Sequence record: MH494197.1
Strand: one strand, 5' to 3'
DNA: 64,000 nt
Source of the DNA: Escherichia phage CMSTMSU
Part shown: in pieces, positions 2,601 to 49,220 of the stretch
Numbering within the stretch: position 1 is the stretch's first letter
Layout of the letters: each line of letters opens with the position of its first letter
The notes under the pieces: model-generated
Databases searched by the model: none
The model's input: the letters and a program-made list of their open reading frames with translations, nothing else
What the model was told of the DNA's origin: nothing
Translations under genes and position numbers: made by a program

Positions 2601-2612
2601 TATTGTTCGTCC

Positions 2613-14740: not shown

Positions 14741-16255
14741 ATGGCAGATACAAGTAAGAAATATGCCCAACAACAGTTGGGTCGTTTTGACCCTTCGTAT
14801 CCACAACTAGCAACCGTGATGGATAACCGTGACCCAACTAAATCCGGTAAGCTAAAAGTGTGGATTCAAGGTTCACAAAGTGATAAAAATTCAAAAGAGT
14901 CATGGATTGAAGCATCATACATGTCTCCATTCGCTGGTAAAACTCGGGATACCAAGTGCTGATGCTTATGGTCAATATCCAAAGGGATATGGTTTTGGGC
15001 AGTTCCACCTGATGTCGGATGTACTGTTGTTGTTATATTTGCACAAGCAAGAACATTCCAAGCGTATTGGATTGGTTGTGTTTATGACCAACGTATGAAT
15101 ACGATGGTTCCGGATGGCTACTGAAATAAGCAATTATGCAGGTACTGATATGCCATTACCCGTAACTGATTATGACCGTAATACAATTTCTACCAGTACT
15201 CAAGACAAATATGCAAACGTTCCAATTATTGCAGGTCTGAAAAACAAAACTTACTTTATGATGAGGAAGCGGGTGTTGCTAACCGTAGCAGTACTCGCCA
15301 AACTACCAGTACTGTTTATGGTCTTTCCTCACCTCGTGGTAACAGTTTTATTATTGATGATGGTTACACAGAAGAAGAATTAACAGCACCTACATGGGAT
15401 CAAGATCCAGATGGTTATCAGGATACCCAATTCAATAACCCAGTGAACGATACTCGTGTTGGTTCTCGTAAAAATGAAGGCGTTGTAATTAAAACACGTA
15501 GTGGTGCACAGTTGTTGTTATCTGAAGCCTCTGGTGATGTTCTTTTAATTAACCGTGATGGTACTGCACGTATTAAATTCACTGGTGAAGGTGACATTGA
15601 AATGCACTGTGATAAGAATATTAACATTCGTGCAGGACAAGATATTAACATGGTTGCGGGTCGCTCATATAATATTGAAAGTGGAGCAGACTTCAATGCT
15701 CGTGTTGGTGCAAACACTAAACTAGATTTGGTTGGTGCATTGGATGCTAAAGTTGGTGGTCAGGTTGTTATTAACGCTGGAGCAGATTTACGTTTAGTAA
15801 CAGCAGCTTCATTACGTATGCAAAGTGGTAGCAGTACTGATATAACTGCTGGTTCTAATGCGTCAATCTCTGCTGCTACCAGTGCTAATCTTATTGGTTC
15901 TTCATCAGCTATTATTAGTGGTGGTGGTCAAACCCTTACTGTTAACAGTGGTGGTAATAGTGGTACTGCTGAATTTAATGCACCAAACTTCCGCACCCCA
16001 TCTGCTGGCTTGAATGATCATATACATGATATATCGGCTTGGGTTGATGCAGAGAATCACGGCAGTACTGTTGAACCTCCACGTCAAGGTGGTGGTAGTG
16101 GGAATAGTGAATCCCCAGTTCAACCCGAACCTGCTAATGATGTAGCTCCAACTTTAGCTCCAGTACAGGACACTGAAGCAATTCAATATGTAAATTATAC
16201 AACAGAAACAGAACAAGTTCAAACACAAGATTTAATGACTTCTGATCCGGCATGA
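14741..16255 (+). CDS. Baseplate central spike protein, gp5-like: N-terminal OB-fold plus C-terminal beta-helix; no lysozyme domain inside
   Basis: YGFWAVPPDVGCTVVVIFA OB-fold-like segment (frame-joined 14741..15098); long Gly/Ser/Ala/Thr beta-helix-like repeats in ORF 15443..16255. Confidence 0.6.
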
Positions 16256-16620
16256 CTGGTTATAGCATTACGTATGAAGGTCTTCATATGTTCATGCCGT
16301 GTAGTGGAACCATTCGCCAATACGGTTATTGGGGAAAGGTGTCCCGACTAGTGGTGGTGGTAAAGCTGATAGAAGTGGCTGGGAAATACAGTGCAAGGGT
16401 GATGTTGTAGCTCCAGATGGCGGTGTAGTTGTTATCACTAATGGTGCTTTATTGGTTCAACATAAGTCTGGATATAAATCTGTATTTTATAATATTCAAT
16501 CAGATTTGCTCAATAAAGACGTTGTTCAAAAGGTCAAGTTATCGGGAAAGCAAATGGTGTTATACAATTTGAAATACGAGTAACTTCTGCCAACGTACTA
16601 GGATTTAGTGGTTCTGTTGA
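16252..16620 (+). CDS. Degenerate LytM/M23-peptidase-like domain (possibly N-terminal part of the following lysozyme-domain protein)
   Basis: APDGGVVVITNGALLVQHKSGYKSVFYNIQ...ANGVIQFEIR resembles M23 fold ending HLHFEIR, but His ligands replaced; two frame breaks. Confidence 0.3.
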
Positions 16621-17393
16621 CCGGATTATTTTATGCATCACAGACTGGCACAGGTTCTGAAGCGGGAAATAAAACATTAATTGCAGGACAAGCAACGAAC
16701 CAAGCAGCACCGAAAGCTGTTGTTCAACCTTCTGTTGATAGTGATGAATTAGTTGTCACAACTAAAATTAAAACTATCGGTACTGGGTATTCTCAACGTG
16801 GTTCTCGTCATGTCCCTCGTCGTAGAAGAACACAACGTTCAGGTGGTACTCCAGTACCTACGGCACAAGAATCATACAATGTGGGTAATGTTGATAAGAC
16901 TGCAATTGATTGGAAAGTTGTTCCGGGTGATTCACAATTTATTTCTGAATTGAAAGAATATGAAGGAACAATGGCGTATCAACAAGCTAAAGGATATTAC
17001 CGCAATGGTAAATTTTGGAGATATTTGGATAGTCGTGGATTCCCAACTATTGGTTACGGTCACTTGATTGTTAGTGGTGAAAACTTCTCTGGTGGGATTA
17101 CCGAACAGGAAGCCAATGATATGTTGGTGCGTGATAGTAGTAAGGCTATATATGACGCAAAATCCATTTACGCTTCTTATAAGATGAAAACACCTTACAT
17201 GGCACAACAAGTTCTATGTCAAATGGTATTCCAGATGGGTAAAGGTGGTGTAATGAAATTTAAGTCAATGCTATCTGAAATGGCAAAAGGTAACTACAAG
17301 CAAGCTGCTGCTCAAATTCGAAATTCAGCTTGGTATCGTCAAACTACACGCCGTGCTGAATTAATGGCACGTAGATTAGAGGCATGTCAATAA
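16605..17393 (+). CDS. T4-lysozyme-family (GH24) muramidase domain with about 100-aa N-terminal extension; likely virion-associated lysin
   Basis: EYEGT...YLDSRGFPTIGYGHL...QMVFQMGKGGVMKFKSMLSEMAKGNY...NSAWYRQTTRRAE matches T4 lysozyme catalytic E/D/T and C-terminal helices. Confidence 0.8.
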   Translation, partial: LVVLLTGLFYASQTGTGSEAGNKTLIAGQATNQAAPKAVVQPSVDSDELVVTTKIKTIGTGYSQRGSRHVPRRRRTQRSGGTPVPTAQESYNVGNVDKTAIDWKVVPGDSQFISELKEYEGTMAYQQAKGYYRNGKFWRYLDSRGFPTIGYGHLIVSGENFSGGITEQEANDMLVRDSSKAIYDAKSIYASYKMKTPYMAQQVLCQMVFQMGKGGVMKFKSMLSEMAKGNYKQAAAQIRNSAWYRQTTRRAELMARRLEACQ

Positions 17394-17929: not shown

Positions 17930-18321
17930 ATGGCAATTGTTTTAAAGGTTTTTCAACTCCAGTGGTTGGAAGAACTGAAACATTGTATGACAGTGAATTG
18001 GTTCGTCAGGATTTAATGAATCATTTCAATACAAAAAAGGTGAACGTGCATTTGATGCTGATTATGGGTTCATTGCGTGGGATTTGCTATTTGAATTGGA
18101 TGGTTATAATACAATCAACCTTTTGGAAGCAGATGCCCGTAGAATTATTAGCTTGGACCCACGTTTAAGCTTAAAGAAACTTCAAATATCAAGAATTGAG
18201 TACGGTTATCAGATGGATATAGTACTTGAATATGTTATTCTCAATACTCTTGAAGAATTAACTATAGTTTTGATGCAAGAAGTAACAACAGAATGGCTAC
18301 CTATTCTGTATCATCTTTTAA
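17930..18321 (+). CDS. Baseplate wedge protein gp25-like (GPW/gp25 family)
   Basis: ETLYDSELVRQDLMNHFNTKKGERAFDADYGFIAWDLLFELDGYNTINLLEADARRIISLDPRLSL; AAAGGAAA SD; one frame break. Confidence 0.55.
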
Positions 18322-18421: not shown

Positions 18422-21400
18422 ATGTCACAACAAAAAGGCAATCAAATTTATACGCTGGTGAAGATTGGACTCAAGTATATGAAAGCTTTTATAAGATCAA
18501 TCTAACAGCTTATGACTTTGATACAATCCGTCAAAGTATGATTGACTATCTACGTGCTACGTACCCAGATTCTTTCAACGACTGGATCGAAAACGACCAG
18601 TTCATCTTTATTCTAGATACCATTTCTATGCTAGGACAGAACTTAGCATTCCGTATGGATTTAAACACTCGTGAGAACTTCCTAGATACTGCTACTCGTC
18701 GTGCATCAGTACTGAAACTCGCAAAAATGATTTCTTATTCTCCACGCCGTTCATATCCAAACGCAGTTGCTAAATTAACAGAAATAAAACCAACCAAGAC
18801 GTTCGTAATAGTTTTAACGAATCACTTAAGGATAAAATCATTCGTTGGAATGACCCAATGGACACAAACTGGTATGAGAACTTCATTCTAGTTATGAACA
18901 GTTCATTTGTCAGTACTAACCAGTTTGGTAATCCGGTTAAACGTATCGATATCAATGGTGTTTCTCGTCAGCTATATCGTATGAATACAATTCCAATGTC
19001 AGCACCAAGTCTTCCATTCACAGCTACAGTTAATGGTGAATCGATGACATTTGAAGTTGTCAACCCTGATATTACAGCAGTTGGTGTTGAAGAGCGTCAC
19101 CCTGAACCACAAGAGCAAAAATATATCGTTTATCAGAATGATGGTAACGGATTTAGTTCACCAAATACTGGTTTCTTCGTTTATTTTGTTCAAGGGACAT
19201 TGACATACCAAGATTACCAATATAATATTCGTGAAGAAAACCGTATCCAAGACATCAACGTAGATAATATCAACGAAACTGATGTTTGGGTTCAGGAAAT
19301 CAACGAAGATGGTATTGTACGTACTAAATGGACCAAAGTTCCATCTATGGAAAGTATCGCATACAATACGGTTAACCGTCAACTAAAACAATCTTTGCTG
19401 TCACAACTCGTGATAAAGACCAGATTACTATTAAGTATCCTGATTCTCGTAGTGGTGTTGTTCCTCGTGGACGTATCGTGTATGGTATCGTGTTAGTAAT
19501 GGTGAAACATACAACATTAAAACGTCTGAAATCCAGAACAAAAGTGTAAAATACACCTATAGAACCAAAACACAATCAAGCTATGAATCCAGTACTTTGG
19601 ATATTCGTTTCACATTGCAATATGAATCAGATCGTGCACAAAGTGCAGAAACAATTGAACAAATTAAGGCTCGTGCTCCACAAATGTATTACACTCAAAA
19701 CCGTTTTGTTAACGGCGAAGACTATAACATTGCTCCGTTGAGTTTGGGTAACACAGTTCTTAAATCTAAAGCAATTAACCGTTTATATAGTGGACAGTCA
19801 CGATTCATTGATATTAATGATCCAACTGGTAAGTATCAAAACACTGATGTGTTTAGTGATGATGGTTCAATGTATCAAGAAAACACACAATTTAATAAAT
19901 CTTTACAATTACCAACTACCAAAACAAATGCTAGTATTGTAATTGATAATATTCAGCCATTGATTGGTGAGAATGCTGTAATCCAACGTTATCAAGCATA
20001 TCCACCGAATACAATTGGTATTGAAATTCAACAAAATGGACACCTGAATACAATTCTAATTACGCAACTAATACGTATGGTCGTATTATGGGAGCAACAG
20101 GTAACGTATTCGGAAATTATCAAGTTGGTACGTTGATTAAGTTTTCAAATGCCGGAACCACTGTGTGGGCTAGTATTGTTAGTGTTCTTGATAATGGATA
20201 TTACGTTCTAAGTACTTCAGTTTCATCAAATATGCAAGCACAAGAGTACATTTTACAATACAGAACACGTTTTAATAGTGTCGAAGTGCAAGCAATCGCT
20301 GCAATGCTTGATAAAAAGACAGATTTTGTTATTATTCATGATAAAGAAACAACTTCTTGGATTCCATTAGAAATCAGTACTGATGAAGATACTATTTCTT
20401 ATAATGGAAATGAAGTTCTTGTTATGATTAACATCAAATATACTGCTGAAACATGGGAATTTGATGCGAATGGCGTTGAATATGTGTTCGTTGGTGGTGA
20501 TAAAGTTCGTTTTACTTCGTTTCTTCTAAAAAGATAACTGATATTAGTACTGGTAGTGTTCAAAGTGACAAAATTGAAATTTTATCATCAAATACCACAA
20601 GCAATAGTAATGCTGGGTTAACAAGTAACATTGATTTCCAAATTTATGATACAATTCAACAAGAAAACGGTTATCTTGATGGATCTCGTGTGATTATCAC
20701 CTCTGAAAATGTTGATAGTAATGGCATTCCACTAGAACCTAATCAATTCAGAGAAATTGTACCTAATTGGACTGGTGAAGATGCAGTTAAATATGGTGGT
20801 ATATTGGTTTTCCAAGAAAATGATGACTTCACTATATCAGTACTGTCATTACCGAGCGATACTTTCACTATTCTTGATTCTTCATGGGCTTATACAATGG
20901 ATCAGGCACTTGCAGAAACTAATGCGTATAAGAGAAGTGAATTTGTTCGCAACAATGCTATTCGCTCAACAACATTGAGTGGTATCTATAGTAAAGGTTC
21001 AGGCTTTATGGTTGGCTTTAAATACGATGGTAAATATTACTTCATAGAACAAACTGTTGGTAATAATAATGACCGTTTAAACCAATTAATTGAGAACTTG
21101 ACCTATTCTGATGATACAACTGCTGCAACTCCTGAACTTGCGTTTTATCGTGCTATTGTTAATATCGGTACTAATGCTGATGTTAACCAGAAGTTAGATT
21201 ATTATGGTTATAAAGATGTAACTTCACAATATACCGTAAAACGAATGCAAGAACTGGTATTGACTTCCACTGGAAACATTATGCACCAGATGATAATCGC
21301 ATTGACCCAAGTAGAACAAACTTGATTGACATGTATGTATTAACCAATTCATACAAAACTGAAGTTGATGTATGGTTGAAGAATGGAACACAAGGTAATA

Positions 21401-21872
21401 TGCCTAAACCGCCAACATCTGTTGAATTGAAAGACATTTTTAAAGAAGTTGAACAAAAAATAGTCATCAGTGACAGTATTATTTGGCATAGTGCAGAATA
21501 TCTACCATTATTTGGTGCGAGTGCTGCTGAAGATTATAAAGCAGATTTCAAAGTTGTAAAATTGCCTAACAGTACAATGAGTGATGATGAAATTCGTCAA
21601 AATGTCGTAGCACTAACTAACGAGTATTTTAATGTTGATAACTGGGACTTTGGTGAAAGTTTTATTACACAGACTTGTGTACATACATTCATTCCCAATT
21701 AGGACGACATATTAGTACTATTGTTATCGTAGCTCAAAATCCTAACTCTAAATTTGGTTCACTATTTGAAATACCTTCACGTTCTGACCAGATTTTCTTA
21801 AGTACTGCATCAGTTGATAACGTACAGATAGTCAATTCCTTGGCTAAGAGTAACATTAACATTGGTTCATAA
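18422..21872 (+). CDS. Baseplate wedge protein gp6-like (N-terminal about 700 codons) plus contiguous downstream reading that may hold a second baseplate gene; frame-broken
   Basis: YDFDTIRQSMIDYLRATYPDSF...LDTISMLGQNLAFRMDLNTRENFLDTATRRASVLKLAKMISYSP aligns with T4 gp6 N-terminal block from memory; ORFs 18538..21872 chain by frame switches. Confidence 0.55.
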
Positions 21873-21878
21873 CACATT

Positions 21879-21905
21879 AAGGCGTTCTTCGGAACGTCTT
21901 TTTAT
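21879..21905 (+). terminator. Rho-independent terminator
   Basis: AGGCGTTC-TTCG-GAACGTCT hairpin followed by TTTTTAT. Confidence 0.55.
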
Positions 21906-21938
21906 ATCATAAATAAATCAAATGAATGAACGAATTAT

Positions 21939-23563
21939 ATGGAGTCCAAAATGACTAATAATTTTAAGTTTCAACCTACACAGATGGCTGAAGCAGTACA
22001 GAAGAAGCTTTTCATAAAAAGATTGCCTGAGTGGATGCAAGGCTTAGAAGATATTCAGAAAGTCAGTGATGATGTTATCCAACAATGGTTTAATCCGGCT
22101 GAAAACGAATTAGTTGACGGCTACATTGGTGACATGGGTTCTCCGGCAGCAGCAGGGAACATCTTCTTACACGAGTCAACAGTCGCACGTCAACTATATC
22201 AGTTGTCCTCTGCGTATGTCTCAAGAAATGATGACTCCAGCATTCGTTCAATTCAATTTTATGATGATCTAGTTGGTTATATGAATCATTACGGTGCACT
22301 AACCGAAAATGAAAGCCGTTTGTTTAATGGTAAGTTCTATTCATGGACCCACCAATTAACCCAAATAAAATGAACAACTACAGTTCATACCTATGGGATT
22401 CCAAGAATAGCTATAATATCACAACTCCAGATTATATTGTAATGGAACGTGGTGCAGAAAATGGTAACACTTGGTCACTACAAAACTTCTGGTACACATT
22501 AGGTGAAACTTTAGAAGATGGTACAATCCTAACTGAAGAACTAATGCAAGATTCCGTTTTGTTCGTGCTCGTGCTCCAATTATCGAATACAATAAAAATA
22601 TCGAACTAATGAACTACGGTACTAAATTCCGTGGACAGTTGATTTGTTCTCTGATATTATTAAACCTGAAGATATCGTACAAAAAGATATTAACAGCGGT
22701 ATACGTATTGATGGTATTATTCCACAAGATGGTATGCGTATTCTTTTCACCAGTATTGGTAACAATGGTGAAAACAACCGAATTTATAAAGTATATGTTA
22801 AACGTATGCAAGATGGAACACGTGTGTATGGTCTAGCATTAGACCCAGACGAAGAATCTGAAAGCCGTCCGAGTGGTGAACCACAAGATGGTGACGTAGT
22901 TCTTATTATCAAAGGTAATGAATTTGGTAACAGTTCCATGTATTGGGACGGTTCTCATTGATTCAAGCACAGTCTAAAACTTCTGTGAACGTATTTCCAC
23001 AATTCCAATTGTATGACCGTAATGGTGTTAAACTAAACAACACTACTACCTATCCATCAAGTACTTTTACTGGTTCTTCATTATTTGGTTTTAAAATTAA
23101 CTATAATTATGCAACCGATAGCGTTTATGGTTATAACATTGAACTGGGTGATTACAATTATTACACCTATGAGAATTTCCTACAATCAACTCGTTATACT
23201 TACGAGCATTTGGGTGTGGAAGTTGAAATTGATGGACTATATTACTATAACGTAATTGGTGAAGGTAATACAATGAACCTAGAAACTGATTGGGTTCGTA
23301 GTACTGAATACTCCAAACAATATGTTAAACAAACTCCACAGGTTGAACGTACAGTAATGTTCCGCGTGTTCAGTACTGTTTATGACATGGAAAGTTTCAA
23401 AGAACCAGTTGAAGGAATGTATGCTTATGTAATTGAAGTTGACCGAACTTATCAATATTACAAAGCAGAACGTGAAACATATCTTGATTGGCATGTTATC
23501 GTTGGTGATGGAGTACAAAGCGTTAAGTACAATCATACATTTGAATTGGCACAAAAGTACTAG
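21939..23563 (+). CDS. Baseplate/fiber structural protein segment (boundaries uncertain)
   Basis: ORFs 21939..22373, 22343..22609, 22644..22961, 22943..23563 chain into one reading via frame switches. Confidence 0.4.
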
Positions 23564-23571
23564 ATAATTCT

Positions 23572-26150
23572 GATGATATTATCGAACTAGTTGTTGATGG
23601 TGTGGAAATAAAAGAATACACCAAAACTGTAGTTAATAATCAAGTACAAAGTATTACAATTGATAGCTCTGTTGATTTGGATGAAGATTCTGTTGTACAA
23701 ATCAGAACTTATAGTAGCACTATCACTCCTAATAAAGAGTTGGGTGCATATGAAGTTCCAATTAACCTACAAAATAACCCATATAATTCAAACATTGAAT
23801 ACATCAACCAAGGTGATTACACCTGCACTTCCAAGATATTATTCAAAAGAATATTACATCTGGTTCTGCTGATGACTTTAACAATTACGAAGAACGTTTG
23901 GCTGCTGGTTTGGTTAATAATGGTGTAGGTACTAAAATTATTCAAAACGAAGCGTCTATGCTACCACTAATGGCACATACCGCTAATGAAGATATTGATT
24001 TGTTTGAATCAATCATGTTTATGCAAGCAGAATACTTCCGCTTCATCAACAAGTTCAACACTCAAATGCTTCGTTTGTATGAAGAAGACCCAAGTGCATT
24101 TCTTGGTAATAGTGCATCAAACATCGTAGATGCGATTCTAACAGCTATTAATATGGGACGTGATAGTACATTCCCATTCTACTATGACAACGTTGCAAGC
24201 ACTGCTGGGTTTATTCGTGCATTTGTCCCACCAACTCCACAGTTCTTGGGTATTTTGCAAGCTTATACGCCACAAAAAGCAACATTCTTAACTGCTGGTA
24301 GTAAATCTAGCTGGTATAATATCAGTCATACTGGTATTATTTCAAAAGCATACCGTGTTATCAATGGTGTTGATAAAATGGATGACGTTGTTTTCGAATT
24401 GGAGAATCGTATCTTTAATAGTATTGACCTTACTTTCAAGGATATTGATTATAAACCAGTACTAAACAGTGAAGACCTATTCCCAACTCCATATTTCACT
24501 GGTACTGATTATAGTGCAGAAGAAAAGAAAACTCTATTGCTACGTGGTTACATTAACTTCACAGCAACCAATGGTATTAGTAACAGTACTCATGATTATG
24601 ATGCAAATAACTGGAGAACTTGGAACTATACTGGTAGTTATTATGTTGTTGATGGTCAGCGTACTGAAATTCCTGCTCGTGGTTCATGGCGTGCAATCTA
24701 TACTGATCAATACGGAACATATCGTCCAGCAACCCACCCGTGGGAAATGATGGGCTTCTCTCAACGTCCTACTTGGTGGAACCAAGAATACGAACCAACC
24801 GCAGTTCAAGTTGGTGAACGTGAGGGTGATGTTGTTTATGTGTATGAAGCACTAGTAATGAATGAAAGTGGTGATTTGGTCCCAAGTGGATTGTGGGATA
24901 TTGATGGTACTATCGGTGACAGCAGCACTGGCACTATTTTGTCCGGTGAACGCCGTGGTCAATATGACAAATACAAGCGTTTCGGTGTACAGCCATTTAA
25001 AATCACTAAGACTGGCGAGAAAACCAGTACTGGTATTGATATTTGTGAAGTTGAGTATATTGCACCTGAAGTTTTAGGTCTTGTTAGTGGTAATTTGGAT
25101 CATCGTGCAGAACCGTGGGCTTATGGTGACATGGGTGACATGGAATTCACTTACATGAACACTGCGATGTTTGCTTATGACCAAATGCTTCTTCTATACA
25201 AAGCAAAACCAGCACAGTTTGCAAACTATTACTGGGATACCCGTAATGATAACCTTAAACCAGTTTATACTGATGGTTCACAGTTCCTTTATGGTGAAAC
25301 TCGTAAGCGTCTAAACTTTGACAGTACTACATTAGTACATGGTGAGAAAAACACCCGTACTATCGGTTATCAAATGTTTGTTAGTGACTATTTGATGTAT
25401 CAGAACAAGAACATTACCACCAAATACGGTGACGTTGTTCGTTCTTCTTATGTTAATGTTGCTCACAAAATTGGTGGCTTTACTAAAGCAGACCAATTGA
25501 CATTCACTGCTAAATCTTTCGGTTTGATTTCACAAGAAAACCAAACTATCGGTCTAGTTCGTTCCAATAACATTCGCGATGAGCAAATGAGTGCAGTAAA
25601 AATTACTTGGAATGGTAGTGCATATCAAATTGATGGTTATGATTTAGTTGGTGCTAAATTTAAATATAAAATTCCAGTTAAAAATGGAAGAAAAGTAACT
25701 CTTAAATTGGAAGACAGAACTGTTGTTCATTACAATGAATGGAAATCTGAAGGTACATTAGAATATGGTAAAATATTCAATACATACCAAGAAGTTTATA
25801 CTTTCATTTGTGGATATGGTGAATATCTAAAAGAACATGGCTGGATTTTTGAAGATGTAAATGATAGTGGTGCTCAACAAGACTGGACAACTATTGCTAA
25901 AGACTTTGTTATTTGGAGTCAGAATAATTTAAGTACTGGTGAGTTCATCTCCTGTACTCCAAGTGCAGCTAATGCTAAATTTGGTGCAGATTTTGGTTCA
26001 GTTCAATCTGTTACACAGAACAGTGGTGGTGTTTGGTCATTACTTGATGATGAAAACCAAGGTATCCGTCAATATGAAATCGAAACGTCGCGTATCGGTA
26101 ACGTATTCACAGTGAGAACTACATCCGAATCACAAAACGTATGGCGTTGA
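23572..26150 (+). CDS. Baseplate/fiber structural protein segment (boundaries uncertain)
   Basis: ORF 23898..26150 (750 aa) continuous with upstream 23602..23928 by frame switch; reading continues from previous segment. Confidence 0.4.
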
Positions 26151-26159
26151 TTCGTTTGA

Positions 26160-27530
26160 GCCTAAGTTCATATGAACACGCAGTTGTTTTGATGATAAAA
26201 CTATCTTTGGCGATTACATTTACCAACCAACTTATGGTGCTATTCAAGAATTGATTAAAATGTATGGTTACATTACTGGGTCATGGACTGGTCGCCTACA
26301 AGCACCGGTTTCATTATCCTAGAAGCAGGAACTTTACCATCATTTGAAAAATTAGTAACTGATTTTGAATTATATTATAATAGTGAAACTCCTGTGAGTG
26401 ATGTTCAGCTTCAAGAGTTATCAAATCACTTGATTGGCTATCAAACTCGTGATTATCTACAACGTATGATTAGTAGTGATGTTAGTCGTGTTGATTTCTA
26501 TAAAGGATTCATTCATGACAAAGGTACTAACCAAGTAATGGAAAAAGTACTCGCGTTTCTAAATCTTACGACACTGATGAATATAAAGCACTACAGGAAT
26601 GGGCATTTAAGATTGGCACTTATGGTAATATCAATGGTAAGAAAAATCTACAATTTAAACTAATCAATGACCAATTTAAACAACAACCACAGATGGTTTC
26701 GTTTGATGTTAATGCTACATCAAATGGTACTGGTAATGGTATTGTTTATTACGGTGAACAAGGGGTTGACTCACGCTGGATTACTCGTCCAAATGGTAAG
26801 TTTTCATTCCCAATGCGTAGTGGAAGAAGTGAGAATATCCAACTTCCAGACATTGGTCCTGTAACACTAGATGAAATTTCATACGTTACTAAAGATTTCA
26901 GTACTGCATATAATGATCGTATCAATTATATGAATAACAGTGGTGAAATCCCAGATTCTGTATGGATGTTTAAAGATGGTAATGATTTGTGGAATATTTT
27001 CGAACTAGTAGACACTGAAGTTGAGATGCTCTCTATCGTTCCAATTGAAAATACCGATGTATATGCAGAACAATTCTGTAAAGTAACTCTAAGTGATGAT
27101 ATCCCACTAAATGATGGTGATTATTATTACTTTGTTGATGAAACTAACTTTATGCCAGATACATTGACTATAGAAAGTCAATATTATACTGCGGGTAATG
27201 ACCCTAGAGTTATGGTAGTTCCGTTTGACACTTCAATCACTATTGACTTCACTGATCCTGATACTCGCCCACGCTTGTATCGTTATGTTTCACGATTCAG
27301 TACTGAAGAGATGCGTCAGGAATACATTGACAGAAAATATAGTTTTAAAGCTCCACAAAGTACTTTGTTTGACCGCCCAACCACATATGATGAGCGTACT
27401 AACATTACTGCGTTGTACCTAAACGTGTTTGACCCAATCAACGGTGTTATTCCGGTGCAGCGATGCAGAACGTTACCTACACATCTCCAGTTGACCCAGC
27501 ACAATACAACAGCAATGGTGAATTGATTCA
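26160..27530 (+). CDS. Baseplate/fiber structural protein segment (boundaries uncertain)
   Basis: ORFs 26283..26663 and 26693..27526 joined by frame switches. Confidence 0.35.
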
Positions 27531-30035
27531 AGCATGGGGTGCTGATAAAGTTGGTCAGGTTTGGTGGAACACCAGCACTGCTTTCTACTTAGATTACACT
27601 CGTGCAATCTATGATGCTGATGGTAATGTGGATGTTGATGCAACAAATGAATATAAACGTTATAACTGGGGCAGATTGCTACCGCACAGTACTGTTGATG
27701 TTCTTGAATGGGTATGTTCGCCAGTTGAACCATATAACTGGGACAAATACTGCAAAGACGTTGCTAACAAAAATAAAACAACACTATGTACCTACCAAGT
27801 GGAACCGCATTGGAAGATAATTATAGTACGTTCTTAGAATATGATAGCACAACTGATACTTATGTTACAAAATACTATTTCTGGGTACGTGATACAATCT
27901 ATGTACCACCATTGCATTCCAGAACTAAATCTTGTACTGATATTGCTCGTATTATTAAAGAACCAGCACAGCTTAACATTCCTTGGTTTGCACCAATCAA
28001 TGAAAGCTCGTTCATTCTAAGTAATATGCAATTTGAAGTCAACGATGACACAAGTATTTTAACTGTTTCTTATTACATGGATAATACTGAAGTTATTAAA
28101 CATGACCAGTATCAATTATGTAAAGAAGGTGATAGCTATAACTTCAATCCATCAATCTGGACTTCTATGTGGAATTCTATGATCGGTCAAGAAACTACTG
28201 AATCAGGAACTGTTATTGATTTACTATATCCTTTAGTACCAAACGGTTTAGGTTCTAATAAGACTTGGTTCCAAGATGTAATTGAAGCTCGTAGAAACTT
28301 TGTAGAAAGTGCAAATAACTATTATCGCTCACAGAATATAACAACTAACACTGTTCTAATGGACGAAGTGTTTAATGTTAAAACTACTGAAGTTAACCCG
28401 AATGAAGTATCATATCGTGTACTAACTTACAATAGTGAATTAGTCATTGCACCTGAAAGTGACAAGTTCAAAGAAAACGACGCAGTACTAGTAAGTACTA
28501 GTGGTGTATTACCTAACCCACTATCAACTAGCTCTGTATATTTTGTGCATATTGATGCTAATGGTTATATTCATCTAATGAATAGTCCATCAAGTGCTGG
28601 TAGTGTGGTTACCATTACATTGGAAAACCGTGGTGAAGGTCAACAGAAAATGATTAAACAATCAGACTATGTTGAAGCACTAGGAACTTCATTGGACATG
28701 ACCCAGTACTGGTCACTAGCAGATTGGTATGATATTGGCTACGATAAAAATACTGCATATACACAAGAATCCAGCCTAGAAGATGCAAACACTAAGAACT
28801 ATCAAGTTGGCGACATTATCAGAATTACAGATGTTGATGGCATCTGGACATTGTACATTAAAGCACAATCACGTGATTCAGTTTACTGGAAAGCAATTGG
28901 TCGTGAAAATAGTACAGTTGAATTGAATGATATGTTATACGCTGACTATACAGTTCGTGATGCTAATGGTTCGTTGAGTAATCGTGAGATTAACGTTCGT
29001 AAAGCACTAGCTTTATTGAAGAACTCATTCGACTTACATCAGAGTGAAATTGTGTTTGATATGGTTAAGTATGTTCACGTAGAACAAAGCGTTGTTGATT
29101 GGGTATTCAAAACATCTTACATTTATATTGTAGGTTTAGAACAATCATTAGTACAGAACTATTCCAACGACAACTTGATTAATCAAATCGTTGAGTACTT
29201 TGAAGAAGTTAAACCATATAGAACTAAGATTCGTTCCCAGATTGAACAGAAAACTTCAGATGATGATTTAATTAAAGGTTTGTGTAATGATTTAGATCCT
29301 AATGGCTATATATTTGCAGATGGGACTTGGGTTAAAACGGAAAAAGACATTTGGGATTATGAATATGCTCAATTCAATGAGGTAACTCAACGTTGGGAGC
29401 AAGTTGGTGAATTGCCAAGTGATTTCGTAGCACCTAATCGCCGTTTCCAAGAAATTGATGTTATCATGCACTACGACAACACTCAATGTAAACCAAATGA
29501 TAATTTGGCAAGTGTTGATGTATTGGAAGAAGTGAATAAGAAATATCAATCTAATGCACAAGATGTTGTTAGTAATTTTGAATTACAACGTTACAAATAT
29601 ACATTCCCAGAATACAGTGATGAAGATTTCGACCTATTGGTTGCTTATCAGATGCAATTGTATTACCCAGAATTGAACGTAACTCTAGGGATTGCTTACG
29701 GTGTTAACCAATGGTATGCAGACCATGCAGATGATTTGGTAGCAACCGCAGAATTCACAGAAACGTTGAATCGTGTATATAAAGAATCAACACAAAATGA
29801 AATGTTTAATGACGTAAATCATTACGTTCAGTATAACACACTCTCTAACCGTTTGAAATTGTACACAGGTGCAGATGATGAAGTAATTCATGATGAAGTT
29901 GGATGTGGATTTAGTGGGTTAACCTATGATGATAATCCAAGCACCAGACTACCGTTTGGTTATGCATCCAGTACTGATTATAACTTTGGTTACTTTGAAG
30001 TTAGTAGTGAGTTGTATAAAAGTATGTTTCTTTAA
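27531..30035 (+). CDS. Baseplate/fiber structural protein segment (boundaries uncertain)
   Basis: ORFs 27463..27837 and 27786..30035 (749 aa) joined by frame switch. Confidence 0.4.
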
Positions 30036-30039
30036 TTAA

Positions 30040-31907
30040 AGAAAACAATACTACTGCAACTGATGATGAAGTTAGAATTATACTTGAAGTTGAATATGGT
30101 GTTTATTCATATCGCCATGTAGATGAAGATGGAAATCAACGATTCTACAATGACGCAATTCATGTATTGTCCGGTATGCGTGGTTTGTATGACAAAGATG
30201 CTACCGACCATTATGAAAAGGCTGAAGAAATACTAAGTAGAATGCCTATTGATATTCATGCATTTACTATGATGCCACGAAAATATGTTTATGTTAATGT
30301 TAATGGTGTATACGAGAGTATCCCAGATGACCAAAGCATTGATGATTTCATGGAAGACAAATTCATAACTGACGGTCAACTAGTTCAATTGGCAGAAATA
30401 AATCTTGATGACTTACCTCTTGATAGAAATAACCCAATGTACAGTGATTATCAGCACATCCTAGATAGCATCACCGATGCTAAGTACTACGATGATATGA
30501 ATGCATTTGATAACCTAGCACTTGAATCACAAACTTCCGAGTTAAAATGGGAAGTTGAAGGTGACGAAGTAGATCCGTACATAATCGACATTTCTGATAT
30601 TAACCCATCAGGAAGAAAGATTGGTCAGATTCGCTTCACAGTTGATGGTTATGGATTCAATAGTGTTTCACTAGTTCAATTGAGAGACAATAGTAGATAT
30701 AAAACTGAAGGTATGGTTATTATCAACCCTTATAAAACAACAGAAGCAATTGTTAGTATTCCTTCTTACGCTAAGATTGAAAATGATATTAGTAAATCAT
30801 ACAGTAAGTATGATGAAAAATACTTCTATAAAATTAAATCAATTGTTAGTGATACAGAAGCTGAAGTAATTGACAATACCCTATCTGATGGTGATAAGGT
30901 TATGATATTCACAACTGATGGTGAAGATTATGTGAGATACCAAAACAATGCATGGGAAACCATCTTGAGTGTATCAAAAATCAAAACTGACACCACACCA
31001 ACCTTGTACACAGTAAGAAACACTGCGAACGGAACTGTAGAACTACTAGATAGTACTGGAGTTGTACTTCGTTATGATAACATCACTAAACAACAACAGA
31101 ATGAACCAGCAATACCTCTAGCATTGAACATCGTTCGTATTAGAACCTTTGCTGATCCAGAATTCTTGGTTGATGGTGTTAAGTTGTATGAAACAAATAG
31201 AAACTATGCTATCGACGCAATGAACTATGAAGTATTCTACGACACAACACTATACGGTGGTTCTTATAATGATGGAATTACACCAGATGACGTTGATGTT
31301 TGGGTAGTGTCTAACGAGATATTTGAAGTTGATGGTGTTACCATTGATAACGGATATAACTTACCAATTACTGGTGCAGGTGTTCTTAGTGAGTTAGTGA
31401 GAACCAAAATGACTGATAGTGTGGAAATTAACGTGTTCGAGTATGATGTTGGTATTATTCAACCAGTACTGAATACTGAAGGGGTATGGGAATATGCATA
31501 TCCACTAGTTAGTGATACATATATTGGTGTAGTTGGTGGAACAGTAACTAACATTACTGCTATCAGTGAAGAAAATGCTACTTATGTTTCACAACCAGAT
31601 TCAGTTAGTCCATATAGTGTTACTAATAATGTTCTATCTGGTGCTGGTGCAAGTATGAATGATATTATTTCTCTTGGTTTTGAAAAAGTTGAAGTACGTT
31701 TTGCAAATAACTACTCCGTGGGTAATGTATAGTGCAGAACACGACTTTAAAGAGAATGTGACATATTCATTTAATGGCTTGAACTTAGGTAAAGTTAATT
31801 TACTAAAACGTTATAGTGTTAACAGTTATCCAATCGAACTATCTGTTTACTCCGATAGTTTGCAAATAAGTGGTAATGACATTAAAAATCTATTAGAAGT
31901 TAAATAA
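30040..31907 (+). CDS. Baseplate/fiber structural protein segment (boundaries uncertain)
   Basis: ORF 30167..31732 (521 aa) extended upstream and downstream (31659..31907) by frame switches; ends at terminator. Confidence 0.4.
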
Positions 31908-31908
31908 C

Positions 31909-31935
31909 AAAAGGAGAGCATTTGCTCTCCTTTTC
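31909..31935. terminator. Bidirectional rho-independent terminator
   Basis: AAAAGGAGAGCA-TTT-GCTCTCCTTTTC hairpin between convergent genes. Confidence 0.65.
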
Positions 31936-31938
31936 TTT

Positions 31939-34216
31939 TTACGCAATAACTTTTTCTATTGCTTTAGTTCGTTTAGGTTTGATAGCCAATTTACCATCAA
32001 TCACATCAAACGTTACGTTACCACCATTAACCAGAGAACCACACAACATCTCTTTAGCTAGTGGAACACGGATGTTTTGCTCAATAGTGCGTTTCATTGG
32101 ACGTGCACCCATCCCAACTTTAACACCATTTGTTGCCAACCACTCACGTGCCGCTTTAGTCAGGAAACTTTAACTTTGCGGTCTTTGATTTGTTCATTCA
32201 GACTACCCATGAACTTATCAATGATGCTGTCAATCGCTTCGCTGCTTAGGTCTTTGAATGTCACAATACTATCGATACGGTTGATGAATTCAGGTGGCAA
32301 GAATGCTTTAATCGCTTTATCTTGTGCTGTATCACTACCGCTCATCCCAATACTACGCTTGGTTGAATCTGCTGCACCAAGGTTAGTTGTCATAATAACA
32401 GTTACGTTATTGAAGTAAACAGTTTTACCTTGTGAACCAGTCAAACGTCCTTCGTCCAGAACCTGTAGGAAGGTTAGTAGTACTTTACGATCAGCTTTTT
32501 CGATTTCATCAAGCAACAGTACTGCATTCGGGAACTGCTCAATCTTGTCGAGTAGCAGACCGTTACCGGAATCGTGACCAACATAGCCGGAGGTGAACCA
32601 ATCAGTTTAGCAACAGTATGTTCCTGTGAAAACTCGGACATATCGAAACGAATCAGTTCAGAGCCAGTTGCATCAGCCAGTGCTTTGGTAATTTCAGTTT
32701 TACCAGTACCAGATGGCCCAACAAACATGAATGCACCTTGAACACTTGATTTATCACGCAGACCAGCACGAGCTACCATCACGTTATCAACCAGTTTCTG
32801 TACTGCTTCTTCTTGACCGTATACACGAGAACGTAGTGCATCTGGTAGATTACGCATACGTTCACTTTCAGTGCAAGCAACCACGTTAATATCTAGGTTT
32901 GCGATACCTGCAACAACTTCTTGAATCAGTGCAACAGTGATGATGTTATCATCAGTTTCACGAGAACGTACTTTCGCTGCTGCCGCATCCATTAGGTCGA
33001 TTGCTTTGTCAGGGAAGTGTTTGTTCTTCAGGAACTTATCACTTAGTGTAATAACTGCATCCATTGCTTCAGTACTGAACTCTACGTTATGGAAAGTTTC
33101 ATAAGTAGATTTCAAACCATTCACAATCGCACGGGTTTCATCAATTGTTGGCTCAACTACATCAATTTTCATGAAACGGCGAGTTAGTGCACTATCTTTT
33201 CGATGTTTTACGATATTCATCGTAAGTTGTTGCACCGATTACACGAATCTCACCACGAGATAGTGCAGGTTTGAGCATGTTACTCATATCCATAGAACCG
33301 TTGCTTGCTGAACCAGCACCAACCATAATATGGATTTCATCGATGAACACAATAGTGTTTTCACGTTTCTTCAGTTCTTTGAGTAGGTTATCGATACGTT
33401 CTTCGAACTCACCACGGTACTTAGTACCAGCAGTCAGTGCACCTACGTTCAGAGACAGAATTTCAACATCTTTAAGATGCTCTGGTACTTCACCATCAGC
33501 GATTGCCTGTGCTAGACCATCAATGATTTGAGTTTTACCAACACCAGCTTCACCAGTCAGGATGGCATTCTTCTTAGTCTTACGGGCCAGAGTTTCAATC
33601 AGTGCAGAAAGCTCTTTCTGGCGACCAATCATTGGTCAAGTTTACCTTCTTTGCAAGTGCGGTTAGGTTAGTGGTGTAATCTTCTAAACCTTTTGTTTGG
33701 ACGATGGTTGTTGTTGTGCCACTTTTTCTCCCCAGTTGGCTCATCACTAATGCTTTGAAGGTTGATTCCGTTGTCGATTGCTTCTACGTGCTTCTGTAAA
33801 GTTCGTGCTGCTTCAGTACAAGTGATACCCTCTTCACGCAATGCTGCTTCTAGTGCAGTATTTGGGAATGACAAACACTCAAACAGTACAAAATAAGCAT
33901 CAATTGAGAAATCATCACGTTTAAGTTGCTCAATTACTGATTTCTTAGAAAGTTCCTGAACTACACGGTTCACAAGAAGTGATGTGCGGTTCGCTTCATC
34001 ACCATCAGCACTTTTAGGTGCATGTGGAATGTTGTATTTTTCAGATATGCAATCAAACGACCGTGTAGGTTGTCTGCATCGATGTTCATATCTTCAAATA
34101 CTGCTTTGATGCTATCGATTGTCAGTACTGTAGCACTTAGATGGTCAATAGTCAAGAAGGTATGACCCAGAGAAGTTGCCAGTTCGTCGCTTTTTGAATA
34201 ATTGGGTAAGATTCAT
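31939..34216 (-). CDS. ClpA-like two-ring AAA+ unfoldase (Clp N-domain, D1, D2, C-terminal domain), frame-broken
   Basis: N-domain [12 protein letters not shown]; D1 Walker [25 protein letters not shown], Walker B IVFIDEIH; D2 Walker [19 protein letters not shown], Walker B MLDEIEKA; C-terminal [11 protein letters not shown]; about 758 codons as in E. coli ClpA; AGGAGA SD before ATG 34216. Confidence 0.85.
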
Positions 34217-34325: not shown

Positions 34326-35810
34326 TGGCATATAGAATGTGGAAAAAGGTAGAACCAATGATTACAAGTTCATTGACTCTGCCATAGCAGAACAATACAA
34401 CATCGGTGGTGTTGACATGTGGCTTTATGCCTATGTCGGACCAAAACAAGTCGCTGATAACACTGATTTATCATATGGCGGTGATTATTATGGATCAGAT
34501 AGTACCGTTGTGTCAAGCATTGGTGATTTAATTTTGGTGACACTCCAAGTCGTAACTATAATCTCGAAGCTATCACCTTAAGTTGCGTCTACCAAGTCCA
34601 AGAAGCAACTCCTGACTTGAAAATCCCGATTGTTCTTCAACTTTAACACTATGGACATCACAATTCATTATAACACAATGATTCAGCGTTTGGGAAGAAA
34701 AATTATGCCGTGACGTAATCGAACTTCCTAACTTACGTGATTTTGATGTACTTGGTAAAGATTCTGGTTTAAACCGCTTCTATGTAGTACAAGATGGGTT
34801 TAGAACGTCAGAAGGTTACTCAGTTACATGGCAACATCACATTTACAAACTCCGTGTTAAACCTCTTACTGATTCACCAGAGTACTCTGACCTTCTAGGT
34901 AACAATAACTACCCTGATGACCCAGATGATCCAAACAACGGCAATGGTAATACTGATGATGGCTCTTCAGAGAACAGCAGCTATGGTAATGAAATGGATA
35001 TTATGAACCGTATCATTATGCAAGCTGATGATGAAGTACCATACATTCATTTTACTAACGAACACTTGTTCGATGACAGACCAGATACTGTTGATTTGTC
35101 TAAGTATATGCTAAATGGATACGAATTACCAGAGGAACCAGCAAATAAAATGTATTTCCTCAAGAAAACTTACCCAGTACTGAAAGAACTATCTAATGAT
35201 ACATGGATTTCTGTAGAAGTCAAGCGTGGAACAATCTTTCCTCGCAAACCGATGGATGGTGACTTCTTCTTTAAAGAAAACGAGGCTGATGTCACTGGCT
35301 TCTCATTGTATCAATACGATAAATCTGCCAAAAGTGGCTAAATTGTGATGTTGAGTATACTACAGAAAGCACACCACCACAAGGGGTTGATGATTTTTAT
35401 ATTGAATACAAAGAACCACACATTTATCAGTACTTAAATGGTAAATGGGGAGAACCAGAAGTAACTTACGTTAATGACCCATTCACTTCTAATAGTGTTT
35501 ATGGAAATATCGATTCACAACAAGATTATCGTCCTAAGATTCCTCCAGCACGAGGTACAGTTCCTGAAGGTAACATGTTCCCAAGTGATGCAGTTGATGG
35601 TGATTACTACTATCGTACCGATTATACACCAGTAACCCTATGGGAATACAGTGCGTCCAAGAATTCTTGGGTGATTTTCGATTACGGTGGTAGAAAACCG
35701 TGGAAGGTGCAGATCTTGCTCTAACAGAATTTGTTAATAGCCCGAACCGTGTGCCATTACATGATGCAGTTAAACCTAATACAGTGTATCGTATACATAA
35801 GGATTCAGAA
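34326..35810 (+). CDS. Large hypothetical protein (about 495 codons), frame-broken
   Basis: GGAGA SD before ATG 34326; fragments 34339..34581, 34994..35341 and sub-60-aa pieces chain to stop near 35810; TAAATA core at 34290..34295. Confidence 0.4.
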
Positions 35811-37132: not shown

Positions 37133-37161
37133 CTTTCACTGACAAATAAGGAGGTGTTGTT

Positions 37162-49201: not shown

Positions 49202-49220
49202 CATTTTAAATTAATAATTA

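What the first reader, a model, noticed from the sequence alone, without database searches (positions are those of the whole stretch)
21939..31907. About 10 kb of uninterrupted structural reading: one giant protein or an array of unresolvable baseplate/fiber genes
From 21939 to the terminator at 31909 I found no clean intergenic gap; every apparent stop is bridged by a continuing frame. Total length (about 3300 codons, or 3800 with the tail of the gp6-like reading) is close to the summed sizes of T4 gp7-gp12 plus wac as I recall them, so these are probably several genes whose boundaries are hidden by indels.
Basis: inference. Interest (0 to 1): 0.45.

Follow-up and report, generated by a model that had tools for sequence, protein, structure and literature searches.

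The report
One giant phage gene, broken by errors
The 10-kb stretch is a single, already catalogued gene for a 3,323-residue (380 kDa) virion protein of a jumbo E. coli phage. It looks like many small genes only because the assembly has dropped 15 single bases inside it.

Summary
Between 21951 and 31907 (+) there is no intergenic gap, and coding continues across every stop in another frame. The preferred interpretation, several T4 gp7-gp12/wac-like genes, does not hold.

All ten large ORF fragments match one 3,324-position profile (phrog_10938, "virion structural protein") in collinear order. Relatives 99.3% identical in DNA carry one uninterrupted CDS of 3,323-3,333 codons. Restoring 15 single-base deletions gives one ORF of 3,323 codons, 3,320/3,323 identical to a database protein.

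The breaks are assembly errors, not biology:
- 38 of 42 genes in the window are frameshifted.
- There are 230 deletion events against 10 insertion events.
- All 44 CCWGG (Dcm) sites are hit.
- The deletion rate rises from 1% in 3-base runs to 93% in 6-base runs, a nanopore-type signature.

The ortholog phAPEC6 gp245 (381.9 kDa) was detected in virions by mass spectrometry.

Function is inferred, not shown. The gene follows hub/lysozyme, gp25-like and gp6-like genes, also in three homologs at roughly 24-29% identity. That is the gp7/gpI slot of contractile-tail baseplate modules. No significant sequence or fold match to gp7, gpI or any solved structure was found. The result is ordinary and of low interest.

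The parts
21879..21900 (+). Terminator-like hairpin after the gp6-like gene (stop at 21870-21872), inside the 78-nt gap before the giant gene
   Evidence: 9 pairs, 4 G-C pairs, loop of 4, T-run; sequence
21908..21915 (+). cATAAATA, resembling the T4-type late promoter TATAAATA (inference only)
   Evidence: Sequence. A late sigma factor gene is annotated in the relative. Not tested.
21941..21944 (+). GGAG Shine-Dalgarno site, 6 nt before the ATG in the window and 7 nt in relatives
21951..31907 (+). Single gene for a giant virion structural protein: 3,323 codons after repair, 380.4 kDa, pI 4.5. In the window it is split into 16 frame segments.
   Evidence: Collinear hits to phrog_10938. One CDS in WPEC3, EC.P1 and phAPEC6. 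Repaired ORF is 3,320/3,323 identical to P0001. Mass and pI.
22347..22347 (+). Missing base 1 (C of CCCC)
22553..22553 (+). Missing base 2 (C of CCC)
22632..22632 (+). Missing base 3 (G of GGG)
22959..22959 (+). Missing base 4 (G of GG)
23552..23552 (+). Missing base 5 (A of AAAAA)
23821..23821 (+). Missing base 6 (C of CCC; no CCWGG site here)
26133..26133 (+). Missing base 7 (A of AAAAA)
26186..26186 (+). Missing base 8 (T of TTTTT)
26304..26304 (+). Missing base 9 (C in a C run; the other relative, EC.P1, reads CCTGG here)
26551..26551 (+). Missing base 10 (A; neither homopolymer nor CCWGG)
27453..27453 (+). Missing base 11 (T of CCTGG, a Dcm site)
27774..27774 (+). Missing base 12 (A of AAAAA)
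30017..30017 (+). Missing base 13 (A of AAAAA)
31712..31712 (+). Missing base 14 (T)
31719..31719 (+). Missing base 15 (G of GGGG)
21951..29438 (+). Residues 1-2,500: scaffold conserved in all family members, including marine and megaphage homologs of 3.1-5.6 thousand residues
   Evidence: AF2 models of residues 1-1,200 (pLDDT 85.7, pTM 0.80) and 1,141-2,340 (pLDDT 76.1)
26127..26740 (+). Residues 1,395-1,600: the most conserved segment of the family (EH..FDN.T.F, W.GRL.APGF, HLIGYQ.R.YL, FY.G.I..KGT, EEWA..G.YG). Helical but low-confidence in the monomer model. Candidate gp7/gpI-like core (unproven).
   Evidence: Conservation. Low pLDDT. Best but non-significant profile hits of T4 gp7 and P2 gpI fall at residues 1,432-1,538.
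29439..31904 (+). Residues 2,501-3,323: less conserved C-terminal third, with significant matches only within the 72 closer homologs and replaced by other sequence in distant ones. Not modelled.
31909..31934 (.). Bidirectional intrinsic terminator shared with the convergent ClpA-like gene
14741..17393 (+). Context: baseplate hub with lysozyme domain (gp5-like), also frameshifted in the window
17930..18321 (+). Context: gp25-like wedge gene
   Evidence: Pfam GPW_gp25 1.5e-08, phrog_43, mapping
18422..21872 (+). Context: gp6-like wedge gene (1,153 aa)
   Evidence: phrog_10646 and phrog_219 'baseplate wedge subunit', 3.5e-21 on residues 26-125; mapping
31939..34216 (-). Context: convergent ClpA-like ATPase gene, also frameshifted

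Best explanation
Window 21951-31907 (+) is one real gene of a jumbo E. coli myophage. The phage is 99.3% identical in DNA to EC.P1, fEgEco12 and WPEC3/5, and 82% identical to the Asteriusvirus phages 121Q, PBECO4 and phAPEC6. The gene encodes a single 3,323-residue, 380-kDa virion protein.

Shown: its apparent break-up into about a dozen ORFs is an assembly artefact. Fifteen single bases are missing, mostly from A5/T5/G3-4/C3-4 runs, with one at a CCTGG (Dcm) site. The same error process affects the whole window. The protein family is conserved as one polypeptide in many jumbo phages, and the ortholog is physically present in virions.

Inferred (about 0.55): the protein is a baseplate component occupying the gp7 (T4) / gpI (P2) slot of the conserved order hub - gp25 - gp6 - [gp7/gpI] - fibres. 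On this view it joins two copies of the upstream gp6-like protein through its most conserved segment (about residues 1,400-1,600). Its many beta-rich domains build the baseplate periphery and the docking sites for the fibres. Its variable C-terminal third and lineage-specific insertions (CBM_5_12, FG-GAP, LamG in distant homologs) face the host surface.
For: Single gene:
- Ten fragments hit phrog_10938 collinearly, covering profile positions 1 to 3,263 of 3,324.
- There is one CDS of 9,972-10,002 nt in WPEC3, EC.P1 and phAPEC6. 34 phage records cover at least 80% of the stretch.
- More than 50 protein clusters of 3,310-3,361 aa exist down to 44% identity.
- Filling 15 deletions gives one ORF, 3,320/3,323 identical to P0001.

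Artefact:
- 230 deletion events against 10 insertion events across 64 kb.
- 38 of 42 CDS are frameshifted, including portal and hub.
- All 44 CCWGG sites carry a deletion or mismatch.
- Deletion frequency is 1%, 5%, 47% and 93% for runs of 3, 4, 5 and 6 bases.

Virion protein: phAPEC6 gp245 (381.88 kDa) gave 17 unique peptides in purified particles (PMC7247149). CBB_236, which sits next to the wedge gene CBB_237 with matching low coverage, gave 21 peptides (PMC5259590; its equivalence was not checked against the genome).

Baseplate slot:
- The upstream genes are hub/lysozyme, gp25-like (Pfam 1.5e-08) and gp6-like (phrog_219, 3.5e-21).
- The order gp25-like, then a gp6-like protein of about 1,130-1,150 aa (DUF8360), then the giant gene with an abutting or overlapping start, holds in 3 of 3 homologs at roughly 24-29% identity. 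In two of them genes with fibre-type domains follow.
- The AF2 model of residues 1-1,200 is a confident monomeric multi-domain fold (pTM 0.80). Its domain-level resemblances are to tailspike and tail-fibre anchor domains and to phiKZ peripheral baseplate proteins.
- The best profile-profile hits of T4 gp7 (helical/core region) and of P2 gpI both land in residues 1,432-1,538.
Against: Nothing weighs against the single-gene-plus-artefact part.

Against the gp7-slot function:
- No Pfam hit to Gp7_helical, Gp7_5th, Gp7_6th, Baseplate_wedge or Tail_P2_I.
- No PDB hit by sequence or by profile.
- The hhalign matches are not significant (P 0.02-0.09). A reversed-sequence control also lands in the same segment (P 0.26), so that region attracts hits.
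- The PHROG category is 'head and packaging'.
- Residues 2,341-3,323 were not modelled.
- No stoichiometry or localisation data exist for any family member in the papers read.
Confidence: 0.85

Rival explanations
1. One reading: the stretch is an array of several genes equivalent to T4 gp7, gp8, gp9, gp10, gp11, gp12 and wac, with boundaries blurred by indels.
For: The summed T4 sizes (3,489 aa) are close to 3,323 aa, and the region follows a gp6-like gene as in T4.
Against: One uninterrupted CDS in all close and distant relatives. The repaired window gives one ORF. There are no internal intergenic gaps. No PHROG, Pfam or pairwise similarity to any of the seven T4 proteins.
Confidence: 0.01
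2. The frameshifts are biological: a decaying pseudogene, or a gene expressed through programmed frameshifting.
For: The raw sequence does contain 15 frame changes.
Against: The same lesions hit 38 of 42 genes, including portal, hub and late sigma factor; a phage with those would not be viable. The changes are deletion-only, depend on run length and are tied to CCWGG. Relatives at 99.3% identity have the intact frame. The giant gene has the lowest frameshift density among the genes longer than 2 kb (1.5 per kb).
Confidence: 0.02
3. The single giant protein is real but is an adhesin or fibre (a baseplate fibre, or the tail 'hairs' seen on phAPEC6 and CBB) rather than the gp7-slot wedge scaffold.
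Against: There are no internal repeats. The N-terminal 1,200 residues fold confidently as a monomer (pTM 0.80), unlike trimeric fibres. 2,500 residues are conserved across very distant hosts, which is unusual for receptor-binding fibres. The family is not restricted to hairy phages. Separate fibre genes lie downstream. The fibre-type matches cover under 10% of the query (TMq 0.07-0.09).
Confidence: 0.25
4. The giant protein is an encapsidated or ejected protein (like N4 vRNAP or phiKZ inner-body proteins) that merely lies next to baseplate genes.
For: The PHROG category is 'head and packaging'. Giant virion proteins of about 3,500 aa are known to be packaged in N4-like phages (own knowledge).
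Confidence: 0.05

Closest known systems
Orthologous giant 'virion structural protein' of Asteriusvirus and related jumbo phages (phAPEC6 gp245, 121Q gp582, WPEC3_CDS390, EC.P1 XOD30135.1; more distantly the CBB 'virion structural protein'; PHROG phrog_10938)
   Same: Same gene: 99.3% DNA identity and 3,320/3,323 aa to the nearest, 82% DNA identity to 121Q, PBECO4 and phAPEC6. Same length, same neighbours and same terminator. Detected in virions (PMC7247149; a structural protein next to the wedge gene in PMC5259590).
   Different: Only the 15 missing bases in this assembly, plus 3 amino-acid substitutions. In the papers found here, no family member has an assigned function, copy number or location.
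T4 gp7 / P2 gpI / T6SS TssG (the third chain of the (gp6)2-gp7 baseplate wedge core)
   Same: Same gene slot directly after the gp6/J-like gene, with hub and gp25/W-like genes upstream and fibre genes downstream. Like T4 gp7, any conserved core would lie inside a much larger multi-domain protein: the T4 core starts at about residue 640. The best, weak profile matches fall in the family's most conserved segment.
   Different: 3 to 19 times longer. No significant sequence, HMM or fold match. Membership is not established.
Large peripheral baseplate proteins of other jumbo phages (phiKZ PHIKZ027 and PHIKZ087, PDB 9xqd and 9xqs)
T4gp10-like / tailspike N-terminal anchor domains (CBA120 TSP4, T7 gp17 N-terminus, Dpo31)
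   Different: Weak, single-domain resemblance only. No trimerisation evidence and no sequence similarity to T4 gp10.

Membership tests
phrog_10938 / giant virion structural protein of Rak2-like and related jumbo phages | Full-length collinear match to the 3,324-position family profile | tested here: met
   Ten fragments cover profile positions 1-3,263 in order, E from 3.6e-25 to 0
phrog_10938 / giant virion structural protein of Rak2-like and related jumbo phages | One uninterrupted ORF of about 3,320-3,340 codons | tested here: met
   Met after repair of 15 one-base deletions. The raw window does not meet it, but the cause is shown to be assembly error.
phrog_10938 / giant virion structural protein of Rak2-like and related jumbo phages | Position directly downstream of the gp25-like and gp6-like wedge genes | tested here: met
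   also in distant homologs
phrog_10938 / giant virion structural protein of Rak2-like and related jumbo phages | Physical presence in the virion | not testable with these tools
   Shown for the ortholog phAPEC6 gp245 by mass spectrometry (PMC7247149). A low-coverage structural protein next to the wedge gene in CBB (CBB_236, PMC5259590) is probably the same gene; this was not checked.
T4 gp7 / P2 gpI / TssG wedge-core family | Gene immediately follows the gp6/J-like gene in the baseplate module | tested here: met
   reference orders in T4 and P2
T4 gp7 / P2 gpI / TssG wedge-core family | Match to Pfam Gp7_helical, Gp7_5th, Gp7_6th, Baseplate_wedge (PF23786) or Tail_P2_I (PF09684) | tested here: not met
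   No hit at E <= 1 for the whole protein, nor at E <= 10 for 19 diverse core segments. T4 gp7 and other wedge proteins do hit these models.
T4 gp7 / P2 gpI / TssG wedge-core family | Profile-profile similarity to the gp7/gpI core | tested here: inconclusive
   The best hits of both families fall in giant residues 1,432-1,538, but with P 0.02-0.09. The best of 31 sliding windows gives P 0.009. The reversed control gives P 0.26 in the same place. HMM against 79 gp7-family proteins gives a best E of 0.02.
T4 gp7 / P2 gpI / TssG wedge-core family | Fold similarity to gp7 in solved baseplates | tested here: inconclusive
T4 gp7 / P2 gpI / TssG wedge-core family | Forms a heterotrimer with two gp6 chains (core bundle and trifurcation unit) | not testable with these tools
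   Needs multimer prediction or cryo-EM
   phmmer and BLASTP give E > 0.1 for all, against 4e-16 for the gp5 lysozyme control. No PHROG other than phrog_10938. No Pfam hit.
Trimeric tail fibre / tailspike | Repetitive fibrous or beta-helix architecture, with recognised fibre domains | tested here: not met
   No internal repeats. No fibre Pfam domains. The N-terminal 1,200 residues form a confident globular multi-domain monomer. Only small-domain matches to fibre anchors.
Tail tape measure protein | Mostly alpha-helical, with length proportional to tail length | tested here: not met
   The models are beta-rich. By the usual figure of about 1.5 A per residue (own knowledge), 3,323 residues would imply a tail of about 500 nm, against 94-128 nm reported (PMC7247149, PMC3622015).

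The most novel reading that the evidence does not exclude
The giant protein is a hyper-expanded gp7/gpI homolog. One 380-kDa chain per wedge would carry the conserved (gp6)2-gp7 core at about residues 1,400-1,600, in the middle of the chain, and would replace the whole set of separate peripheral baseplate proteins (the roles of T4 gp7, gp8, gp10 and gp11). Lineage-specific carbohydrate-binding insertions would make the baseplate itself an adhesin. This would define a widespread 'single-chain peripheral baseplate' architecture in jumbo and megaphages (3.1-5.6 thousand residues, from enterobacterial to marine).
Probability: 0.4. Interest if true: 0.45.

Novelty: already known. Interest (0 to 1): 0.15.

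Why it matters
For this finding the value is mainly corrective. The window comes from an unpolished long-read assembly in which nearly every gene is frameshifted. Gene calls on it are therefore unreliable, and 'many small ORFs' should not be read as new genes. Fragments of exactly this broken gene already sit in UniProt/BFVD as separate proteins.

Biologically, the gene belongs to a conserved family of the largest proteins of jumbo phages, and no function has been assigned. If it is the gp7-slot baseplate scaffold, it would explain how these phages build their large baseplates and anchor complex fibre sets. It would also be a target for host-range engineering. That remains a hypothesis.

Tried and rejected
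1. Pfam on all fragments and on the intact ortholog: no hits.
2. PDB sequence search with the protein, with a 28-sequence full-length profile and with a 19-sequence core profile: only chance hits, E >= 0.088.
4. Foldseek against BFVD: found only family members and weak fibre-type matches.
5. Direct comparison with T4 gp6-gp12, wac, gp53 and gp5: nothing for the giant protein.
6. HHalign of the T4 gp7 family (78 representatives) and the P2 gpI family against the giant family: suggestive co-location but not significant, and the controls show regional bias.
7. The P2 gpI search returned only homologs of at least 70% identity, so that profile was shallow.
9. One Pfam call exceeded the residue limit.
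10. Literature: no paper in the library assigns a function, copy number or location to this protein.
11. Self-comparison for internal repeats: none.

Full report
**1. Observation**

In window 19000-34000 the + strand carries a chain of overlapping or abutting ORFs of 65-750 aa from 21939 to 31907. It has an 11-pair stem (5 G-C pairs), a 4-nt loop and a T-run at 31909-31934, scored on both strands, directly after the TAA at 31905-31907. So the description is correct: there is no clean gap, and every stop is bridged by another frame.

Two details need correcting.
- The true start is the ATG at 21951 (MTNNFKF...), preceded by GGAG at 21941-21944. The ATG at 21939 is in frame only because an A5 run lost one A.
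- A clean 78-nt gap (21873-21950) with a terminator-like hairpin (21879-21900) separates the region from the gp6-like gene.

**2. Identity**

All ten ORF fragments longer than about 100 aa hit one PHROG, phrog_10938. This is a 3,324-position profile annotated 'virion structural protein'. The hits are in strict collinear order, from profile position 1 to 3,263, with E-values from 3.6e-25 down to 0. No fragment hits any other PHROG, and none hits Pfam.

Megablast of 21900-31950 against 50,697 phage records finds 49 records, and 34 cover at least 80% of the query. Eight are at least 99% identical (EC.P1, fEgEco12, WPEC5, WPEC3 and others). The Asteriusvirus phages 121Q, PBECO4 and phAPEC6 are at 82%.

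In WPEC3, EC.P1 and phAPEC6 the stretch is one CDS of 10,002 or 9,972 nt. It lies between a 1,153-aa 'baseplate wedge' gene and a convergent ClpA-like ATPase gene. In the 5.8-billion-protein collection the family has 240 hits. More than 50 clusters, down to 44% identity, all measure 3,310-3,361 aa, and more distant members reach 5,638 aa. It is a single, genuinely giant protein.

**3. Why it looks broken**

Aligned to WPEC3, the region lacks 15 single bases. Filling them gives one ORF of 3,323 codons (21951-31907). It is 3,320/3,323 identical to database protein P0001 and runs through 16 frame segments.

The same comparison over all 64 kb (98.8% identity) points to one error process.
- There are 230 deletion events against 10 insertion events, and 9 of the 10 insertions sit in one divergent patch at 48552-48590.
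- 38 of 42 annotated CDS carry at least one frameshifting indel: portal 9, hub 8, late sigma factor 8, gp6-like 10. The giant gene has 15, which at 1.5 per kb is the lowest density among the genes longer than 2 kb.
- All 44 CCWGG sites show a deletion (38) or a mismatch.
- The fraction of homopolymers with a deletion is 1.1%, 4.7%, 47%, 93% and 89% for runs of 3, 4, 5, 6 and 7 bases.

From general knowledge, this is the signature of nanopore consensus errors on Dcm-methylated DNA. Pseudogenisation and programmed frameshifting are excluded by the genome-wide spread and by the intact frame in relatives at 99.3% identity.

**4. The multi-gene (T4 gp7-gp12 plus wac) idea**

The T4 proteins sum to 3,489 aa, which is close to 3,323, but there is no homology. 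phmmer and BLASTP of gp6-gp12, wac and gp53 against the giant protein give only E > 0.1. The positive control, gp5 lysozyme against the hub protein, gives 4e-16.

**5. What the protein is**

*Shown.* It is a virion component in the ortholog. phAPEC6 gp245 (381.88 kDa) gave 17 unique peptides and 7.6% coverage in purified particles (PMC7247149). In phage CBB a low-coverage structural protein, CBB_236, lies next to the wedge gene CBB_237 and gave 21 peptides (PMC5259590). It is probably the same gene, but I did not check this against the genome. The CBB authors used 'the largest gene' of each Rak2-like phage as the anchor for genome comparison.

The repaired protein is 380.4 kDa, acidic (pI 4.5), and has no internal sequence repeats.

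Conservation is modular.
- Residues about 1-2,500 are shared by all homologs, with insertion hot-spots near residues 160, 500, 1,000, 1,715-1,820 and 2,150-2,250.
- The last 820 residues or so have significant matches only within the 72 closer homologs.
- Distant homologs carry CBM_5_12, FG-GAP_2 and Laminin_G_3 modules.

*Structure.* AF2 with a 23-row alignment gave two models.
- Residues 1-1,200: a confident model (pLDDT 85.7, pTM 0.80).
- Residues 1,141-2,340: a moderate one (pLDDT 76.1, pTM 0.48).

Foldseek against BFVD recovers family members in other jumbo phages, for example Agrobacterium phage Atu_ph07 'Structural protein' (E 3.6e-78, 22% identity). Beyond the family it finds only fibre-type proteins at E 2e-5 to 1e-3, covering less than 10% of the query. 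PDB searches with the sequence, a full-length profile and a core profile find nothing.

*Context (shown).* The gene order in the window is as follows.
- Hub with lysozyme domain (gp5-like), 14741-17393.
- A second lysozyme.
- gp25-like gene, 17930-18321 (Pfam GPW_gp25, 1.5e-08).
- gp6-like gene, 18422-21872 (phrog_219 'baseplate wedge subunit', 3.5e-21, on its N-terminal 100 residues).
- The giant gene.

In three homologs at roughly 24-29% identity the order is also conserved: gp25-like, then a protein of about 1,130-1,150 aa (DUF8360), then the giant gene with an abutting or overlapping start. These come from a phage contig whose longest copy is listed at 512 kb, a Tara Oceans scaffold and a JGI metagenome contig. 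In two of them genes with fibre-type domains follow (Gp34_trimer, Peptidase_S74, Collar). This matches the P2 order V-W-J-I-H and the T4 order 6-7, with the giant gene in the gpI/gp7 slot.

*Test of gp7/gpI homology (inconclusive).* A search of 1.84 billion representatives with T4 gp7 shows that its residues about 640-830 correspond to the N-termini of shorter wedge proteins (Pfam Gp7_helical 643-689; PF23786). The conserved core of T4 gp7 is therefore internal.

- HHalign of the gp7 family against the giant family puts the best hit at gp7 662-749 against giant 1,466-1,538 (P 0.086; 0.02 with the core-only profile).
- It is the best of 31 sliding windows (P 0.009), which is not significant after multiple testing.
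- The P2 gpI profile independently puts its best hit at giant 1,432-1,500 (P 0.051).
- An HMM of the giant core against 79 gp7-family proteins gives its best hits (E 0.02-0.06) on the N-terminal core of PF23786-type wedge proteins, in a consistent register.
- Reversed-sequence controls score worse (P 0.26 and 0.55), but the reversed core also lands at 1,461-1,502, so this segment attracts hits.

This segment (residues about 1,395-1,600) is the most conserved part of the family. Yet it is modelled as low-confidence helices in the monomer (pLDDT below 50 for residues 1,444-1,552). That would fit a region that folds only against partners; this is an inference.

**6. Most likely mechanism**

I put the baseplate role at about 0.55. 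On this reading, one chain per wedge binds two gp6-like chains through the conserved central segment. Its many beta-domains form the large baseplate periphery and the docking sites for the downstream fibre proteins. The variable C-terminal third and the lineage-specific carbohydrate-binding insertions face the cell surface.

Rival functional readings:
- A fibre, adhesin or tail 'hair' protein (about 0.25).
- A packaged or ejected protein (about 0.05).

The multi-gene and pseudogene readings are effectively excluded.

**7. Novelty and interest**

The gene is already deposited many times, is annotated as a virion structural protein, and has been detected in virions. What made it conspicuous here is sequencing error. 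Interest in the finding as posed is low (0.15).

The open question is the function and location of this family of 3-5.6 thousand-residue proteins. It is moderately interesting to phage structural biologists and can be tested by multimer prediction, cryo-EM and quantitative proteomics.

Noticed in passing
window 1-64000: The whole window carries a systematic error signature relative to phage WPEC3: 230 deletion events against 10 insertion events, and 38 of 42 CDS frameshifted. All 44 CCWGG sites carry a deletion or mismatch. Deletion frequency rises from 1% in 3-base runs to 93% in 6-base runs. This implies an unpolished nanopore-type assembly of Dcm-methylated phage DNA, so no ORF call in this window can be trusted without correction.
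   Followed up: yes
window 22644-22961 and 23898-26150 (and neighbouring fragments): BFVD/UniProt holds separate entries that are 99-100% identical to pieces of the giant gene: A0A2Z5HGI1 (750 aa), A0A2Z5HGJ1 (105 aa), A0A2Z5HHJ0 (201 aa) and A0A2Z5HI07 (112 aa). The first two have exactly the lengths of the broken ORFs in this window. The fragmented annotation appears to have been deposited and copied into protein databases.
   Followed up: partly
window 48552-48590, and 44755-54358: Nine of the ten insertion events relative to WPEC3 cluster in one 40-nt patch. The surrounding region maps to two large genes annotated as tail fibre proteins in WPEC3. Those genes contain paralogous segments of 77-84% identity to each other, seen as secondary BLAST alignments. 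This looks like real divergence or recombination in fibre genes rather than sequencing error.
   Followed up: no
window 31909-34216: A ClpA-like ATPase gene ('ATP-dependent protease', 31939-34216, - strand) converges on the giant gene and shares its bidirectional terminator. The adjacency is conserved in WPEC3, EC.P1 and phAPEC6. A chaperone role for folding a 380-kDa protein is conceivable but untested.
   Followed up: no
window 21873-21950: The short gap before the giant gene holds a terminator-like hairpin (21879-21900), a cATAAATA motif resembling the T4 late promoter (21908-21915) and a GGAG Shine-Dalgarno site. The giant gene may therefore have its own late transcription start rather than being read only from the wedge operon.
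   Followed up: partly
L008 10001-23680 (P0096) and related marine homologs; corresponds to window about 26330: Marine homologs carry a CBM_5_12 carbohydrate-binding module of about 50 residues inserted in the middle of the family's most conserved segment (after the W.G...PGF motif, before PNFE). They also carry very large insertions, up to about 1,700 residues, near residue 1,800. The conserved core therefore tolerates surface-exposed insertions.
   Followed up: partly
window 35810-37149: The 447-aa gene annotated 'tail sheath' in WPEC3 also matches the PHROG 'tail sheath stabilizer' (gp15-like, 5.9e-18). The phAPEC6 paper assigns the sheath to a different 97-kDa protein (Gp277). The 'tail sheath' label here is probably wrong.
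   Followed up: partly
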